Shown here piece by piece: positions 14,573-57,075 of a DNA stretch of 64,000 bases. The notes beneath the pieces were generated by a model that was not told where the DNA came from, did no database searches, and saw nothing but the letters and a program-made list of their open reading frames with translations. Origin of the DNA: Escherichia phage EC.P1; the sequence record PQ657772.1; one strand, given 5' to 3'. Position 1 is the stretch's first letter. Each line of letters opens with the position of its first letter. A program made the translations under genes and the position numbers.

Positions 14573-15145
14573 TTATAAATCACGAACGACATTCATTAAA
14601 CACAATTTGGGCTTTATCGCATTCAAAACCCATATGCATTCTTTGTAAGTTGCTATTATAGCATCTAAATGCTCAGTTACAATGCTTTCTTGAAAATATT
14701 CTTCTTCATTGAGCTTTGCTAAATTAGTCACATCACATGTAGGTACTATAGGTCTGGATTGTACACCCATTCCATTATTGATATTGGTAAAATGTAAAAA
14801 ATTGTACTTCACCACACCGTTATCTACACTTATGATACATGTCAAATGTTCTAACTCAGTTAGTTCGGTATTACAAGTGACATGAATGAATCCAGCATTA
14901 TAGGCTCTATAATCATCTACTAATATCTCAAAATCATTACGTTTAAATATAAGTGAAATGAGTTTGTCTTGTGGTTTAACCTTCTGAAATTTTACCGAAT
15001 TTACGTATGATACTTTAATCTTAGATGAAATTATCTTTTTACTAAGTGCAGTTAATTCTTCTTTAGCCTTAAAAGTTAAAGTTATAGGTCTAAATCTAGA
15101 ACTTTTGTTCTTCTTTGATACTTTGAACTTACCTTTTCTATTCAT
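14573..15145 (-). CDS. FQS-motif family protein
   Basis: 190 aa; C-terminal module ..NEEEYFQESIVTEHL.. Confidence 0.6.
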   Translation of the reverse strand: MNRKGKFKVSKKNKSSRFRPITLTFKAKEELTALSKKIISSKIKVSYVNSVKFQKVKPQDKLISLIFKRNDFEILVDDYRAYNAGFIHVTCNTELTELEHLTCIISVDNGVVKYNFLHFTNINNGMGVQSRPIVPTCDVTNLAKLNEEEYFQESIVTEHLDAIIATYKECIWVLNAIKPKLCLMNVVRDL

Positions 15146-15199
15146 TAATTAAACCCCACATAAAGTAAAAGGGATGGCATATTACCAACCCTATATCTT

Positions 15200-15436
15200 T
15201 TATTTTTTAATAGATTCATAAAGCAGAAACAACCAAATAAACATTGATGAACAAACTACTACTGGGATTAATGTAAATTCAGTAAAGAATAAAAGTATTC
15301 CATAAGTTAGTATGCAACATAAGTTTACGTACATAATTGCTTCTGCATTTTTATTTTTCATTTTATATGCAATGAATGTTGGTGACCACATTACCAAAAA
15401 TGCAAACAACGCACATATGATGATTATAGTTTCCAT
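15200..15436 (-). CDS. small membrane protein
   Basis: 78 aa, two hydrophobic helices. Confidence 0.5.
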   Translation of the reverse strand: METIIIICALFAFLVMWSPTFIAYKMKNKNAEAIMYVNLCCILTYGILLFFTEFTLIPVVVCSSMFIWLFLLYESIKK

Positions 15437-15506
15437 ATTACACCTCCGTAAAATAATGTTCTGTACTGCTATTATTTACAGAGAATATCTGAAAAATTGA
15501 TCTAGA

Positions 15507-15731
15507 TCAATTTTTAGTCACTTTACAATTTGAATCTTTTTTGTACTGAACAATCACATTGTTCTTAAGGAAGATGATGGTCCCATAGGAACCTTGGGCT
15601 GCAACTTCAACAATATGGTTCTTATATGTTTCAGTATACCCTTCCATCTCGTTGATACACACTACATGATACTTTGGTTTAGCACATACAACAGTACTCA
15701 AGAATAGCAGTACTAGTACTAGATATTTCAT
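15507..15731 (-). CDS. small secreted protein
   Basis: 74 aa; signal peptide MKYLVLVLLFLSTVVCA. Confidence 0.55.
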   Translation of the reverse strand: MKYLVLVLLFLSTVVCAKPKYHVVCINEMEGYTETYKNHIVEVAAQGSYGTIIFLKNNVIVQYKKDSNCKVTKN

Positions 15732-15781
15732 TTTATTACCTTATAAACAAGAACAGGAATCCTTTTACGGATTCCTATAAT

Positions 15782-16075
15782 TTAGTCCTTTAATGTACCA
15801 TTGTGTAAACGATTATACACATCATTGCGACGCAATTCAACAATATCTTCAGCGTACTTCATTGTAAACGCCCATGCTTTTGGATGCACATTAAGCTTCA
15901 TACGAATGCGATTCTTCATCAATTCACCGCTTAGGCGAACAAACTCATGAACACCACGACTTCCGTACTCTGAAATCAAATCATTGATGTACATGTTGCG
16001 AAGGGTTTCGTCTGTACATTCTTTAACCATTTCTACGTCTGCCACGATGCTTGCATTTACTGAAGTACTGATCAT
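15782..16075 (-). CDS. hypothetical protein
   Basis: 97 aa ORF. Confidence 0.5.
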   Translation of the reverse strand: MISTSVNASIVADVEMVKECTDETLRNMYINDLISEYGSRGVHEFVRLSGELMKNRIRMKLNVHPKAWAFTMKYAEDIVELRRNDVYNRLHNGTLKD

Positions 16076-16086
16076 TTTAAGTTACC

Positions 16087-16353
16087 TTATTTGAATTGGA
16101 CTGTAATTTTATCACCTTCAACTACGAACTTACAGTCGTAGCGACGGGCCATATCCATATACATATGCTCAGAATACCACGGAACATCAATAACTGGATG
16201 CTCTGCGTATTGTAGCACTTCACGGTCACCAACAGTAGTGATGACGAAAGGAATGTTCATCTCTCGCAAAAACAACTCGGCACCTGGTGAACGATTGACA
16301 AACTCAGTGTCGTTACGCAAAGTAAAACCATTGTATTGTAATTTAAGCTTCAT
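16087..16353 (-). CDS. hypothetical protein
   Basis: 88 aa ORF. Confidence 0.5.
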   Translation of the reverse strand: MKLKLQYNGFTLRNDTEFVNRSPGAELFLREMNIPFVITTVGDREVLQYAEHPVIDVPWYSEHMYMDMARRYDCKFVVEGDKITVQFK

Positions 16354-16367
16354 GATTATCCTCTAAG

Positions 16368-16724
16368 TTAATACCATTCTTTTAAACCATCAAGTTCGGC
16401 TATGTGAGTAATTATAACACAGATAACACTCAGGTCAAGCATTATTTGCTCATAATTTAATTTTATTCTATCATCACTGTATGCTCTAAAAACAACATCA
16501 AAGTCAAAGTAGTTATCGTTTTCATCATTCATTGGAATGATTCTATATCTACGTCTACCATCATCATTGAATACAGTCAAACATTGTTTGAATTTCTTCA
16601 TTAACTGTGTAGTCAATGCATTGTAATATGCAACATCATATTGTGTACAACGTGGGTCATTGGGTAGATAAAACGATACAAATTTTTTTAATTCTATTTG
16701 AGTCTTATCCATATACAGCCTCAT
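16368..16724 (-). CDS. hypothetical protein
   Basis: 118 aa ORF; start uncertain. Confidence 0.5.
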   Translation of the reverse strand: MRLYMDKTQIELKKFVSFYLPNDPRCTQYDVAYYNALTTQLMKKFKQCLTVFNDDGRRRYRIIPMNDENDNYFDFDVVFRAYSDDRIKLNYEQIMLDLSVICVIITHIAELDGLKEWY

Positions 16725-55033: not shown

Positions 55034-55430
55034 TTACTGTGTTTTTAATTTCTAACAATTCACTATACATCTTCTTCAATTGTACAATATCTTCATATAA
55101 AATACCACCCATATCATCAATCAAAGAACGTTGGAATAGTGATTCATCTGACTGTATCGTGTCCAAATCAGAAATTTTCAATACTGTAACTGGGTTTAGG
55201 GTGTTTACAATAAGTTTGTTTGTGTATGGTATGTATGTGATCTTGATATTCATTTCCGAATCAAGGGCATACAACCTCAAAACAGACAAATCACCACAAA
55301 GTTGGATTTTTGGTTCATCAAACTCATCAGACCACCACATAGTACTAGTCATATAATTGACGTGTTGGTTCAAATGTGATATATCCAAATCGAAATAATA
55401 TTTTAGTTCATTGTGTAAATCTAAACTCAT
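55020..55430 (-). CDS. FQS-motif family protein
   Basis: 136 aa; ..IQSDESLFQRSLIDDMG.. Confidence 0.6.
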   Translation of the reverse strand: MSLDLHNELKYYFDLDISHLNQHVNYMTSTMWWSDEFDEPKIQLCGDLSVLRLYALDSEMNIKITYIPYTNKLIVNTLNPVTVLKISDLDTIQSDESLFQRSLIDDMGGILYEDIVQLKKMYSELLEIKNTVIVGS

Positions 55431-55485
55431 AAATTTATCCTCTATGCATCATTATCTTACAGTGTAGGATAAACCCACGATAATG

Positions 55486-55881
55486 TCAAGATGTGAATTG
55501 CTTATACCAGTGATACAGTTCTTTCAATTCTTCAGTACTGAATAGAACATCTTCAATCGTTGTTTGTTGGAAGTGGTAATCTTCATTTAAGTACATTGAA
55601 ATATTTTTATATACTTTTCGATTACATTTCCCAAGAAATGATGTTCTTTTGGATGTATATTCAATAAATGTTAACTTATCTAATTCTACATCCAATGACA
55701 ATTTCATACAGTATTCAGTATCATCTACGTACATAAGTTTATTTGAATAACAATCAACTGTGATATATTCTTTATGTGAGAATTGGTATATACCATTAAA
55801 TTTTTTACCATTTGTACTTCTGAATTTTTCAAGGTAATAAGAGAGTGGTTTAGATATTGTACTACCAATAGTATTATTCAT
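55486..55881 (-). CDS. FQS-motif family protein
   Basis: 131 aa; ..NEDYHFQQTTIEDVL.. Confidence 0.6.
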   Translation of the reverse strand: MNNTIGSTISKPLSYYLEKFRSTNGKKFNGIYQFSHKEYITVDCYSNKLMYVDDTEYCMKLSLDVELDKLTFIEYTSKRTSFLGKCNRKVYKNISMYLNEDYHFQQTTIEDVLFSTEELKELYHWYKQFTS

Positions 55882-55901
55882 AGAACCTCAAAATTTAGAC
55901 A

Positions 55902-55926
55902 AGAAAAATGCCCCGAAGGTCGGGGC
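55902..55926 (-). terminator. intrinsic terminator
   Basis: GCCCCGA-CCU-UCGGGGC hairpin followed by U-run on - strand, after 56039..56590. Confidence 0.55.
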
Positions 55927-56038
55927 AGTACGAAAAAGATTTTGTACAAAAAAGGGGAATAATACAATAAAATAATAACGCATCATTATTATGTAAGGGA
56001 GGAAAGTAACATGATAATGTTAACCATTACTGGTATAA

Positions 56039-56590
56039 TTATTTATCATTTAATTCTTTTAATTGAGCTTGTATATCACCAGAAAGTTTACGGATTTTCT
56101 TGAAACAGTAAACACTATCATCAAGTTCAAGTTCTAGGCCGTGAGTGATTGCATAAAGCATTTCTGCAAGTACTAGATCCTGACGCATCCAGTTACCATT
56201 TTTATAGGTTGTCATTACACAATAAGGACAGTGGCTGTTTCCGGTTTGTTTACCCAGGAACACAGATTGGATTGTATCATGCTTGAAACCCACAAAAGAT
56301 TGGTTGATCTTGTTGATTTCAGCTACTACGTCCATTTGTGCACCAGTGTTGATTGCAAACACTTGGTCACCGTTCTCGGTTTTGTTAATGTTTAGTTCAA
56401 TATCACTACCAAGTTTACGAACAGCCAATGTATAAAGTAGGATTTCATACATATCATAATTGGTTGTTTCACCATTTGGTGCAGTTACATCGAGACTAAC
56501 ACCATGCATTTTAACTTCAGTACTGAATCCATCTTTATCTGCTAGAAAATCAGTGATTTGTTCAGTTAGGATTTTAATTTGTTCAATCAT
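56039..56590 (-). CDS. hypothetical protein
   Basis: 183 aa ORF. Confidence 0.6.
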   Translation of the reverse strand: MIEQIKILTEQITDFLADKDGFSTEVKMHGVSLDVTAPNGETTNYDMYEILLYTLAVRKLGSDIELNINKTENGDQVFAINTGAQMDVVAEINKINQSFVGFKHDTIQSVFLGKQTGNSHCPYCVMTTYKNGNWMRQDLVLAEMLYAITHGLELELDDSVYCFKKIRKLSGDIQAQLKELNDK

Positions 56591-56608
56591 TATTCATATC
56601 CTTATGTT

Positions 56609-56632
56609 GGAAAAAGCCCCCATTACGGAGGC
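56609..56632. terminator. intrinsic terminator (hairpin flanked by A5 and T4)
   Basis: GCCUCCGUAAUGGGGGC hairpin after stop of 56647..57075. Confidence 0.55.
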
Positions 56633-56646
56633 TTTTGTTAATCTAA

Positions 56647-57075
56647 TTATAGGGAAGCTTCGTATTCAGCTACAATGTCAACCATCTCATTGACAAAGTT
56701 GATATGGTCATGAGTTACGGTACGGAAATCATAAACCAGTGATTGTTGGAAGAATACGTCTTCAGCCAGATTACCTTCAAAGTTCAGGTCGATGTTTTCT
56801 TCATCGTTGGTTGGAGCAACTTTGATATTTAGTTGATTTTCATCAACGACCAATTTCACTACACAACCCAATGCAATCGCCAGTACATAGGCAGGTTTCT
56901 TAGCTGCTTCAGAACGGAATGGAGCACGTAGTGCACAAATGGTGCTGCTAATCTCATCATTCAGTTCTTTATATTTAACGTTAATCATCAGTTCTTCAAT
57001 TTTGACGCTCTCGATTACACGACCAGTTTCAGCAGCGAAGAAAGAGTGGTTACGGATAGTTTGTTCGATATTCAT
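56647..57075 (-). CDS. FQS-motif family protein
   Basis: 142 aa; ..LAEDVFFQQSLVYDF.. Confidence 0.6.
   Translation of the reverse strand: MNIEQTIRNHSFFAAETGRVIESVKIEELMINVKYKELNDEISSTICALRAPFRSEAAKKPAYVLAIALGCVVKLVVDENQLNIKVAPTNDEENIDLNFEGNLAEDVFFQQSLVYDFRTVTHDHINFVNEMVDIVAEYEASL

What the first reader, a model, noticed from the sequence alone, without database searches (positions are those of the whole stretch)
14573..57075. Expanded paralog family (about 20 genes) sharing a C-terminal E-E-x-(Y/F/L)-F-Q-x-S-(T/L)-(V/I) module
Twenty minus-strand ORFs of 120-190 aa (14573..15145, 20544..21059, 34836..35285, 36462..36821, 36814..37230, 39846..40223, 40611..40976, 43207..43611, 43608..44114, 44715..45107, 49505..49948, 50328..50783, 50780..51292, 53337..53792, 53786..54241, 54238..54633, 54614..55033, 55020..55430, 55486..55881, 56647..57075) carry the same short motif (EEEYFQESIV, EEGYFQESLV, EEALFQLSTV, DESLFQRSLI, EESFFMDSTV ...) 30-40 residues from the C-terminus, followed by an amphipathic stretch, while the N-terminal ~100 residues are highly divergent. 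Two copies I checked at DNA level (14573..15145 and 53786..54241) use different synonymous codons for the motif, so conservation is at protein level. A variable N-domain on a conserved C-module, expanded to roughly one gene in seven and sitting among homing endonucleases and promoter cassettes, is the pattern expected of a rapidly diversifying host-interaction or anti-defence family. I cannot place it in a named family from memory; this is my best candidate for an undescribed system.
Basis: seen in the sequence. Interest (0 to 1): 0.85.

Follow-up and report, generated by a model that had tools for sequence, protein, structure and literature searches.

The report
Old paralog family, jumbo-phage small proteins
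A giant E. coli phage carries 21 anciently diverged copies of one small, mostly acidic, single-domain protein with no known function. The family is real and unnamed, but it is old and stable rather than a fast-diversifying two-part "system".

Summary
The window is an Asteriusvirus (121Q/PBECO4-like) E. coli jumbo phage, 99.5% identical to phage WPEC3. A profile finds all 20 ORFs plus a 21st (35316..35732).

No Pfam or NCBIfam model matches. PHROGs splits the family over about 25 unknown-function groups. A profile search found 129 clusters (50% identity), all 62-233 aa with the same layout.

- **One domain, not two.** AlphaFold2 (pLDDT 91.5) gives one compact domain: a short N-terminal helix, seven antiparallel strands and two C-terminal helices. 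The motif is the first C-terminal helix.
- **Old, not recent.** Paralogs share only 20-37% identity. All 21 have syntenic orthologs in phAPEC6, and 10 have collinear reciprocal best hits in Klebsiella phage RaK2.
- **Constrained, but faster than neighbours.** dN/dS is 0.25 against 0.14 for neighbouring genes, and below 1 in every gene.

None of the phAPEC6 orthologs is in its published virion proteome. Conserved sigma70-like promoters precede several units.

Most likely these are early cytoplasmic binding proteins, each with its own target. The function is inferred, not shown. Interest is moderate.

The parts
14573..15145 (-). Family member, 190 aa, basic (pI 9.3), with a longer N-terminus. 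Motif EEEYFQESIV.
   Evidence: AlphaFold2 gave a poor overall model (pLDDT 54), but the C-terminal half has the same order of strands and helices. Ortholog is phAPEC6 gp039c, 84% identical.
20544..21059 (-). Family member, 171 aa. Motif EESVFQQSLI.
   Evidence: Ortholog is phAPEC6 gp054c, 77% identical.
34836..35285 (-). Family member, 149 aa. Motif EEEHFMDSTV.
   Evidence: Reciprocal best hit with RaK2 ORF226, 35% identical.
35316..35732 (-). 138 aa from the ATG start. Degenerate motif TEDMYMQLNFV.
   Evidence: HMM E = 3e-5, then 1.7e-11 with the improved HMM. Representative P0006 is 92% identical.
35783..35812 (-). Sigma70-like promoter (TTGACA, 18 nt spacer, TATACT), followed by a hairpin, upstream of 35316..35732.
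   Evidence: Read directly. Both hexamers are present in phAPEC6. Promoter function is inferred.
36462..36821 (-). Family member, 119 aa. Motif EESLFQYSMI.
   Evidence: Its closest paralog is the adjacent 36814..37230, at 30% identity over the full length.
36814..37230 (-). Family member, 138 aa. Motif EEKFFQYCLV.
39846..40223 (-). Family member, 125 aa. Loose motif DEADEFQKRTV.
   Evidence: HMM E = 5e-14..
40611..40976 (-). Family member, 121 aa. Motif EEEYFQTSTL.
41007..41035 (-). Sigma70-like promoter (TTGACT, 17 nt spacer, TG-TATAAT) upstream of 40611..40976.
   Evidence: Identical over 61 nt in phAPEC6. Function is inferred.
43207..43611 (-). Family member, 134 aa. Loosest motif, VEEEFQYNLL.
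   Evidence: HMM E = 1e-10, and 4e-5 with the improved HMM. 95.5% identical to its phAPEC6 ortholog, dN/dS 0.08.
43608..44096 (-). Family member, 162 aa from the ATG start, basic (pI 9.3), with a C-terminal extension. Motif EEERFMLSTI.
   Evidence: Reciprocal best hit with RaK2 ORF214.
44715..45107 (-). Family member, 130 aa. Motif EEDEFQKNTT.
49505..49948 (-). Family member, 147 aa. Motif EEMYFQQLTV.
   Evidence: Reciprocal best hit with RaK2 ORF198.
50328..50783 (-). Family member, 151 aa. Motif DEYVFQQSTV.
   Evidence: Reciprocal best hit with RaK2 ORF196.
50780..51292 (-). Family member, 170 aa, with an extra tail of about 50 aa after the conserved module. Motif EEEFFQRSTI.
53337..53792 (-). 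Family member, 151 aa, the most acidic (net charge -23). Motif EEALFQLSTV.
53786..54241 (-). Family member, 151 aa. Motif EEGYFQESLV.
   Evidence: Only 48% identical to its phAPEC6 ortholog.
54238..54633 (-). Family member, 131 aa. Motif EDELFQLSLI.
   Evidence: Highest dN/dS in the family, 0.52.
54614..55018 (-). Family member, 134 aa from the ATG start. Motif EESFFMDSTV. This is the member that was modelled.
   Evidence: AlphaFold2 pLDDT 91.5, pTM 0.83. Helix at residues 4-11, strands across 13-87, helix 93-102 (the motif), helix 110-130. RaK2 protein H6X3Z4 matches with TM 0.85.
55020..55430 (-). Family member, 136 aa. Motif DESLFQRSLI. First gene of a five-gene block of abutting or overlapping genes (55430 down to 53337).
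   Evidence: Reciprocal best hit with RaK2 ORF186.
55461..55489 (-). Sigma70-like promoter (TTGACA, 17 nt spacer, TACACT) in the 55-nt gap upstream of the five-gene block.
   Evidence: Conserved in phAPEC6, where the -10 element reads TACAAT. Function is inferred.
55486..55881 (-). Family member, 131 aa. Motif EDYHFQQTTI.
   Evidence: Preceded by a strong terminator-like hairpin at 55927..55909.
56647..57075 (-). Family member, 142 aa. Motif EDVFFQQSLV.
   Evidence: Reciprocal best hit with RaK2 ORF184, 43% identical.

Best explanation
These 21 genes are an old paralog family found in RaK2-like jumbo phages.

**What the protein is (shown).** Each gene encodes one small protein of 119-190 aa, usually acidic, that folds as a single alpha+beta domain. 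The order of elements is a short N-terminal helix, a seven-strand antiparallel beta-meander, then two C-terminal helices. The 'motif' is the first C-terminal helix.

**Why the motif is conserved (inferred).** Thr-Glu-Glu-Glu reads as an N-terminal helix capping box. The near-invariant Phe and the Thr/Leu-Val that follow would pack this helix against the sheet. The next block, D-F-G-x-L-T-Y-E-D, would turn the chain and cap the long last helix. The motif would then be conserved because it holds the fold together, while the sheet and loops are free to diverge.

**What the proteins do (inferred).**
- They are made early from host-type sigma70 promoters.
- They stay in the cytoplasm and are not packaged into virions.
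- Each paralog binds a different host or phage macromolecule through its diverged sheet surface.
- This would make the family a standing battery of host-takeover or anti-defence binders.
- It arose before Asteriusvirus and Alcyoneusvirus split and has been kept gene by gene since.
For: **Family is real and uniform.**
- 21 HMM hits in the window and none elsewhere.
- 129 clusters at 50% identity from a search of 1.84 billion proteins. All are 62-233 aa with the module near the C-terminus.

**Single domain.**
- AlphaFold2 pLDDT 91.5 and pTM 0.83, with strands at residues 13-87 and helices at 93-102 and 110-130.
- The RaK2 homolog's independent BFVD model matches with TM 0.85.

**Conservation pattern across 136 sequences.**
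- T92 61%, E93 96%, E94 89%, F97 99%, Q98 85%, S100 87%, and 98% hydrophobic at position 102.
- The least conserved helix positions are 95, 99 and 103, which form one stripe (i, i+4, i+8). This fits a single exposed face.
- Helix 2 has hydrophobic residues at 113, 116, 119/120, 123 and 127.

**Protein-level selection.** Ser is encoded by both AGY and TCN codon families.

**Old and stable.**
- Paralogs share 20-37% identity with no adjacency signal.
- 21 of 21 have syntenic orthologs in phAPEC6.
- 13 members lie in the syntenic RaK2 region, and 10 are collinear reciprocal best hits.
- The one extra phAPEC6 copy is itself no more than 35% identical to any other member.

**Constrained but fast.**
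- dN/dS median is 0.25 against 0.14 for 84 neighbouring genes, p = 0.0015. The range is 0.08-0.52.
- The sheet part gives 0.32 and the C-terminal module 0.18.
- Identity to RaK2 is about 32%, against about 48% for neighbours.

**Not in virions.** None of the phAPEC6 orthologs appears among the 62 virion proteins found by mass spectrometry (PMC7247149 Table 1; mapping).

**Acidic.** Median pI is about 4.6, and 85% of representatives are below 5.5, against 31% of other ORFs in the window.

**Likely early expression.** Sigma70-like promoters lie directly upstream of three units and are conserved in phAPEC6. Conserved terminator hairpins lie between units.
Against: - There are no expression, localisation or binding data for any member, so every functional step is inference.
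- The promoter scan is not enriched overall (82 sites against 77.8 expected). The early-gene argument rests on a few conserved intergenic sites and on analogy with T4.
- Five of the 21 members are not acidic (pI 6.3-9.3).
- Only one member gave a confident model. The second (14576..15145) scored pLDDT 54.
- I could not inspect model coordinates, so 'Phe buried, motif structural' rests on helix periodicity only.
- E93, E94, Q98 and S100 are 85-96% conserved. That is more than helix capping alone would need, so a shared functional site is not excluded.
- Absence from one virion proteome does not rule out low-copy packaging.
Confidence: 0.5

Rival explanations
1. Common-partner model. The conserved helix, with its E-E...F-Q-x-S face, is an exposed docking site for one shared host or phage partner, or for a metal or ligand. 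The diverged sheet would then supply target specificity, as in an adaptor family.
For: Polar residues E93, E94, Q98 and S100 are 85-96% conserved across 136 very divergent sequences. The C-terminal module is under stronger constraint than the sheet, with dN/dS 0.18 against 0.32.
Against: The motif is a helix with pLDDT above 90 inside a compact domain. Its conserved residues sit on the same side as the near-invariant Phe, and the only variable stripe is 95/99/103. T-x-x-E is a standard helix capping box (established structural knowledge). No conserved partner gene accompanies the family.
Confidence: 0.25
2. Virion-internal or ejected proteins. The family would be a paralog set packaged in the head or inner body and injected with the DNA, like T4 internal proteins or the phiKZ inner-body paralogs.
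For: phAPEC6 has a capsid inner body (PMC7247149 abstract). Paralogous inner-body families are known in other jumbo phages (my own knowledge).
Against: None of the 20 annotated phAPEC6 orthologs is among the 62 virion proteins detected, whereas non-family neighbours gp037c, gp077 and gp078c are. The genes lie in sigma70-promoter units away from the structural modules.
Confidence: 0.05
3. The motif is a protease processing site. E-x-x-[YF]-F-Q resembles the TEV/NIa recognition sequence E-x-x-Y-x-Q|(S/G), and the proteins would be cleaved after Gln.
For: EEEYFQ matches TEV positions P6 (E), P3 (Y) and P1 (Q) (comparison from my own knowledge).
Against: The motif is predicted as a well-packed helix rather than an extended accessible segment. 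P1' is variable, and Ser sits at P2'. Tyr is only 33% at P3. No 3C/NIa-like protease was seen in the regions examined.
Confidence: 0.03
4. Functionally decaying or neutral duplicates: leftover copies with no current role.
For: They evolve faster than their neighbours.
Against: All 21 are intact. dN/dS is 0.08-0.52. Orthologs are kept in the same order across two genera. Translational-coupling overlaps and promoters are conserved.
Confidence: 0.04

Closest known systems
p32 / C1QBP / Mam33 fold (PDB 1P32, 3QV0, 1YQF; Pfam MAM33)
Polo-box domains (PLK1, PLK2, PLK4, Cdc5, ZYG-1)
   Different: Polo boxes have six strands and one helix, belong to kinases and usually occur in tandem. Sequence identity is 7-13%. 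No basic residue reaches comparable conservation in the family alignment, unlike the His/Lys phosphopeptide-binding pair I recall from Plk1. The match is most likely generic topology.
[quoted passage not shown]
   Same: Many diverged copies of one small protein of unknown function, confined to one phage lineage.
   Different: None of the papers I read defines this particular family, its motif or its fold. PHROGs splits it into about 25 separate unknown-function groups.
Small acidic early phage inhibitors (Ocr, ArdA, Arn, anti-CRISPRs; from my own knowledge)
   Same: Small, acidic, non-structural, and located in regions of host-type promoters.
   Different: No sequence or fold match to any of them appears in the PDB searches. 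No activity has been tested.

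Membership tests
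Any curated protein family (Pfam-A, NCBIfam) | Score above the family's curated cut-off | tested here: not met
   20 members were scanned individually. The best Pfam E-value was 0.016 and every hit was far below its cut-off. NCBIfam gave nothing below 0.04. Ten longer relatives also gave nothing.
PHROGs viral protein families | Match to a PHROG with an assigned function | tested here: not met
   Members match 29 PHROGs, for example phrog_24941, 21500, 17453 and 33518. All are labelled 'unknown function'.
p32 / Mam33 (MAM33) family | Helix, seven consecutive antiparallel strands, then two helices | tested here: met
   DSSP on the model gives a helix at residues 4-11, strands at 13-18, 28-32, 37-41, 45-51, 55-62, 66-75 and 78-87, and helices at 93-102 and 110-130. 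The p32 description comes from PMC8924301.
p32 / Mam33 (MAM33) family | Detectable sequence or profile similarity to p32 | tested here: not met
   hhalign of the 136-sequence profile against human p32 (sequence verified as 1P32) gave probability 0.09%. No PF02330 hit.
p32 / Mam33 (MAM33) family | Significant 3D superposition | tested here: inconclusive
p32 / Mam33 (MAM33) family | Doughnut-shaped homotrimer with asymmetric charge | not testable with these tools
   No multimer prediction or model coordinates were available.
Polo-box domain | Six-strand sheet plus one helix, attached to a kinase, usually in tandem | tested here: not met
Packaged internal or virion proteins | Detected in purified virions | tested here: not met
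   The phAPEC6 orthologs are gp039c, 054c, 083c, 084c, 087c, 088c, 092c, 093c, 102c, 103c, 105c, 120c, 121c, 127c-132c and 134c. None is in the 62-protein virion list.
DNA-mimic anti-restriction proteins (Ocr, ArdA, Arn) | Small size with strong net negative charge | tested here: met
   16 of 21 members have pI 4.05-5.07 and net charge -5 to -23.
DNA-mimic anti-restriction proteins (Ocr, ArdA, Arn) | Homology or fold match to a known mimic, or binding to a restriction enzyme | tested here: not met
TEV/NIa-type cleavage site | E-x-x-Y-x-Q followed by G or S, in an accessible extended segment | tested here: not met
   P1' is variable (Q 26%) and Tyr at P3 is only 33%. The segment is a helix with pLDDT above 90.

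The most novel reading that the evidence does not exclude
The family could be a phage-specific superfamily with its own fold, showing only p32-like topology. Its 20 or more anciently diverged acidic members would each neutralise a different host factor or defence protein. That would make it a bacterial-virus counterpart of the poxvirus Bcl-2-like immune-evasion families, and the largest such battery described in a coliphage. A further possibility is that paralogs co-assemble through the conserved helices into p32-like rings.
Probability: 0.2. Interest if true: 0.7.

Novelty: new member of a known kind. Interest (0 to 1): 0.4.

Why it matters
About one fifth of the genes in this 42-kb stretch, and at least 23 genes in the related WPEC3 genome, belong to one unnamed family that current resources split into about 25 unrelated 'unknown' groups.

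Recognising them as one fold with one keystone helix has three uses:
- It simplifies annotation of RaK2-like jumbo phages, where 83% of proteins are reported as unknown in phAPEC6.
- It gives a clean HMM for finding members in metagenomes.
- It defines a tractable set of about 20 related small proteins for binding or toxicity screens.

The family also shows that a large paralog set in a phage can be old and stably inherited rather than a recent accordion. It does not by itself answer a long-standing question, because its function is still unknown.

Tried and rejected
1. **Word-indexed homolog search with the 52-aa module**. It returned only 33 candidates and 3 fragments, so it was uninformative. 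The exhaustive profile search replaced it.
2. **AFDB50 Foldseek search**. The library was not available, so the broadest fold comparison could not be run.
3. **PDB sequence-profile search**. It gave only E about 1.5 noise.
4. **Fusions to known domains in longer relatives**. None were found.
5. **Recent tandem duplication**. Gene adjacency does not predict similarity (p = 0.70). Only the 36462/36814 pair are each other's closest paralogs, at 30% identity. The extra phAPEC6 copy is also ancient. Rejected.
6. **Gene-wide positive selection**. All dN/dS values are below 1. Site-level tests need more genomes and were not possible with one pair.
7. **Virion or internal-protein role.** Rejected against the phAPEC6 proteome.
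8. **TEV-like cleavage site.** Rejected as a coincidence.
9. **p32 homology.** The topology matches, but the profile comparison was negative.
10. **DNA-level repeat or 'cassette' explanation for the motif.** Rejected. Codons differ between copies, and mean nucleotide identity over the 30-nt motif is 55%.
11. **Literature.** Papers on 121Q, PBECO4, RaK2, CBB, phAPEC6 and Sharanji, plus jumbo-phage reviews, mention paralogs only in general terms and never this family.
12. **Second structure prediction, for the atypical 190-aa member**. It gave low confidence, so the N-terminal extension remains unexplained.

Full report
**Source of the window.** The region 49000-57500 is 99.5% identical to Escherichia phage WPEC3 and 85-88% identical to 121Q, PBECO4 and phAPEC6. 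The window is therefore part of an Asteriusvirus, a RaK2-like jumbo myovirus with a genome of about 350-385 kb. GC content is about 35%, and nearly all genes lie on the minus strand.

**Checking the observation.** All 20 ORFs exist as described.
- A regular expression for the motif hits 18 times in the six-frame translation.
- The other two ORFs carry looser versions of the motif but still match an HMM of the module at E = 5e-14 and 1e-10.
- The HMM also finds a 21st member, 35316..35732, with the degenerate motif TEDMYMQLNFV. It finds nothing else in the window.
- Conservation is at protein level. The conserved Ser uses both AGY (9 copies) and TCN (5 copies) codons, and Phe and Gln use both of their codons.
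- The conserved block is about 38 residues, with consensus FPYNLTEEEYFQQSTVYDLGDITYEDIKKIKKILEKVK.
- Within 14573..57075 the family accounts for 21 of about 92 ORFs, or 9.1 of 42.5 kb.

**Known families.** Pfam-A and NCBIfam give no hit near their thresholds. PHROGs matches 29 different families, all labelled 'unknown function', so the family is currently fragmented. A profile against PDB sequences gives only noise. Every source name retrieved is 'hypothetical' or 'uncharacterized'. Longer relatives carry no extra known domain.

**Extent of the family.**
- The module profile, searched exhaustively against 1.84 billion representative proteins, found 129 clusters at 50% identity with E <= 1e-3. 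All are 62-233 aa with the module near the C-terminus, so there is a single architecture.
- The ten divergent representatives I looked up come from unnamed metagenome assemblies.
- One such contig (L002) is a myovirus-type phage contig carrying three members in tandem.
- Among isolated phages, tblastn finds the family in phages listed under Escherichia, Salmonella and Klebsiella, more weakly in Erwinia, and marginally in Xanthomonas.
- RaK2 has 13 members in the syntenic 50 kb, and phAPEC6 has 22.
- WPEC3 has two further, longer members (about 217 aa) in its first 50 kb, and none in the replication-gene region at 113-163 kb.

**Structure.**
- AlphaFold2 on 54617..55018, using a 136-sequence family alignment, gave pLDDT 91.5 and pTM 0.83.
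- The model has a short helix at residues 4-11, seven antiparallel strands across 13-87, helix 93-102 and helix 110-130. The motif EESFFMDSTV is helix 93-102.
- The protein is therefore one compact domain, not a variable domain joined to a conserved module.
- The alignment also shows conserved hydrophobic strand positions in the N-terminal part, for example Tyr40 at 68%, Ile48 and Tyr79 at 71%.
- In the motif helix, T92, E93, E94, F97, Q98, S100, T/L101 and V/I102 are conserved. Positions 95, 99 and 103 are the most variable and form one i, i+4, i+8 stripe.
- I read T-E-E-E as a helix N-capping box and F97/T101/V102 as the packing face. This is an inference, because model coordinates could not be inspected.
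- A second model, for the atypical 190-aa basic member, was poor (pLDDT 54). Its C-terminal half still shows strands, then the motif helix, then a long helix.

**Fold comparisons.**
- Foldseek against the PDB gives nothing below E = 0.08.
[quoted passage not shown] That is the same order of elements as in this family.
- A profile comparison with human p32 was negative, at probability 0.09%. I treat the resemblance as topology only.
- The viral structure library returns only family members from RaK2 (TM 0.85), GAP32 and PBECO4, all uncharacterised.
- The AFDB50 library was not available.

**Evolution.**
- Paralogs within the window share 20-37% identity with their best partner. Neighbouring genes are not more alike than distant ones (p = 0.70). 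The exception is the 36462/36814 pair.
- All 21 have syntenic reciprocal best hits in phAPEC6, with a median of 77% amino-acid identity against 86% for 84 neighbouring genes.
- Nei-Gojobori dN/dS has a median of 0.25 for the family against 0.14 for neighbours (Mann-Whitney p = 0.0015). The family range is 0.08-0.52. The sheet part gives 0.32 and the C-terminal module 0.18.
- Ten RaK2 members are reciprocal best hits of window members, in the same gene order. Identity to RaK2 is about 32%, against about 48% for neighbours.
- The one extra phAPEC6 copy is itself ancient.
- The expansion therefore predates the split of the two genera. Each copy has been kept under purifying selection, but evolves roughly twice as fast as typical neighbours.

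**Expression and location.**
- None of the phAPEC6 orthologs is among the 62 virion proteins found by mass spectrometry. Three non-family neighbours are: gp037c, gp077 and gp078c, which correspond to window 13621..14004, 31082..32239 and 32284..33099.
- Many family genes abut or overlap by 1-20 nt, which suggests operons with translational coupling.
- Sigma70-like promoters lie in the gaps upstream of 35316, 40611 and the 55020 block, and are conserved in phAPEC6. Terminator hairpins separate some units.
- The promoter scan as a whole is not above chance, so early expression is inferred by analogy with T4-type early genes.
- Members are mostly acidic, with median pI about 4.6 against 6.5 for other ORFs.

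**Surroundings.** The array is interspersed with two HNH homing endonucleases (37247..37654 and 39277..39834), a Dcm-type methyltransferase (51819..52679) and a sigma-70-family factor (25339..26307). T4-like replication genes follow in the WPEC3 region corresponding to just beyond the high-coordinate end of the window. No gene consistently accompanies the family across lineages, so there is no evidence for a multi-gene system.

**Conclusion.** Its architecture and tempo were misread. It is a single-domain fold held together by a keystone helix, and the set is old and stably inherited.

The most likely role is a set of early, cytoplasmic, non-virion binding proteins with different targets, used for host takeover or counter-defence. 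I put about 0.5 on this overall. The structural and evolutionary statements are well supported, while the functional ones are inference.

The main rival, at about 0.25, is that the conserved polar face of the motif helix docks one common partner. This is a new family within a known kind of phenomenon, namely lineage-specific paralog expansions in jumbo phages, and its interest is moderate.

Noticed in passing
L003 (WPEC3 27311-47580, + strand; upstream of the region matching the window): There is an array of about 17 consecutive genes of roughly 380 aa annotated 'regulator of chromosome condensation' (RCC1/ATS1-like). Several proteins labelled 'DNA condensation protein' are in the phAPEC6 virion list, though I did not map them to this array. 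This is a second large paralog expansion in the same genome.
   Followed up: no
L003 (WPEC3 22806-27208, minus strand): There is a tight tandem array of about 20 ORFs of roughly 60 aa each (about 180-230 nt, spaced 2-12 nt apart). A 219-aa member of the family studied here (24551..25210) sits inside it.
   Followed up: partly
window 25339..26307 (-): This sigma-70-family protein (Pfam regions 2 and 3) is only 59.6% identical to phAPEC6 gp066c. That is much lower than the 86% median for neighbouring genes between these two phages.
   Followed up: partly
window 37247..37654 (-) and 39277..39834 (-): Two HNH homing endonucleases (HNH; NUMOD4 + HNH_3) sit between family members.
   Followed up: partly
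L006 26594..27010 and 39757..40200 (phAPEC6 record 50593-51009 and 63756-64199): Two family members are intact ORFs in phAPEC6 but have no CDS in the GenBank record. The first has no counterpart in the window, where a 30-nt gap lies between 34836..35285 and 35316..35732.
   Followed up: partly
window 45126..45148 (-), upstream of 44715..45107: A terminator-like hairpin followed by a T-run is kept in phAPEC6. Its loop and stem ends differ between the two phages while pairing appears to be preserved.
   Followed up: no
window 13621..14004 (-), 31082..32239 (+), 32284..33099 (-): These three non-family ORFs are orthologs of phAPEC6 gp037c, gp077 and gp078c (95%, 76% and 66% identity). All three were detected in virions by mass spectrometry, so virion proteins are scattered through this otherwise 'early-looking' region.
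   Followed up: partly
family motif, for example window 14678..14707 (EEEYFQES): Many members read E-E-E-Y-F-Q, close to the laboratory TEV protease site ENLYFQ|S. This is probably a coincidence, but some of these proteins might be cut by TEV protease when expressed with cleavable tags.
   Followed up: partly
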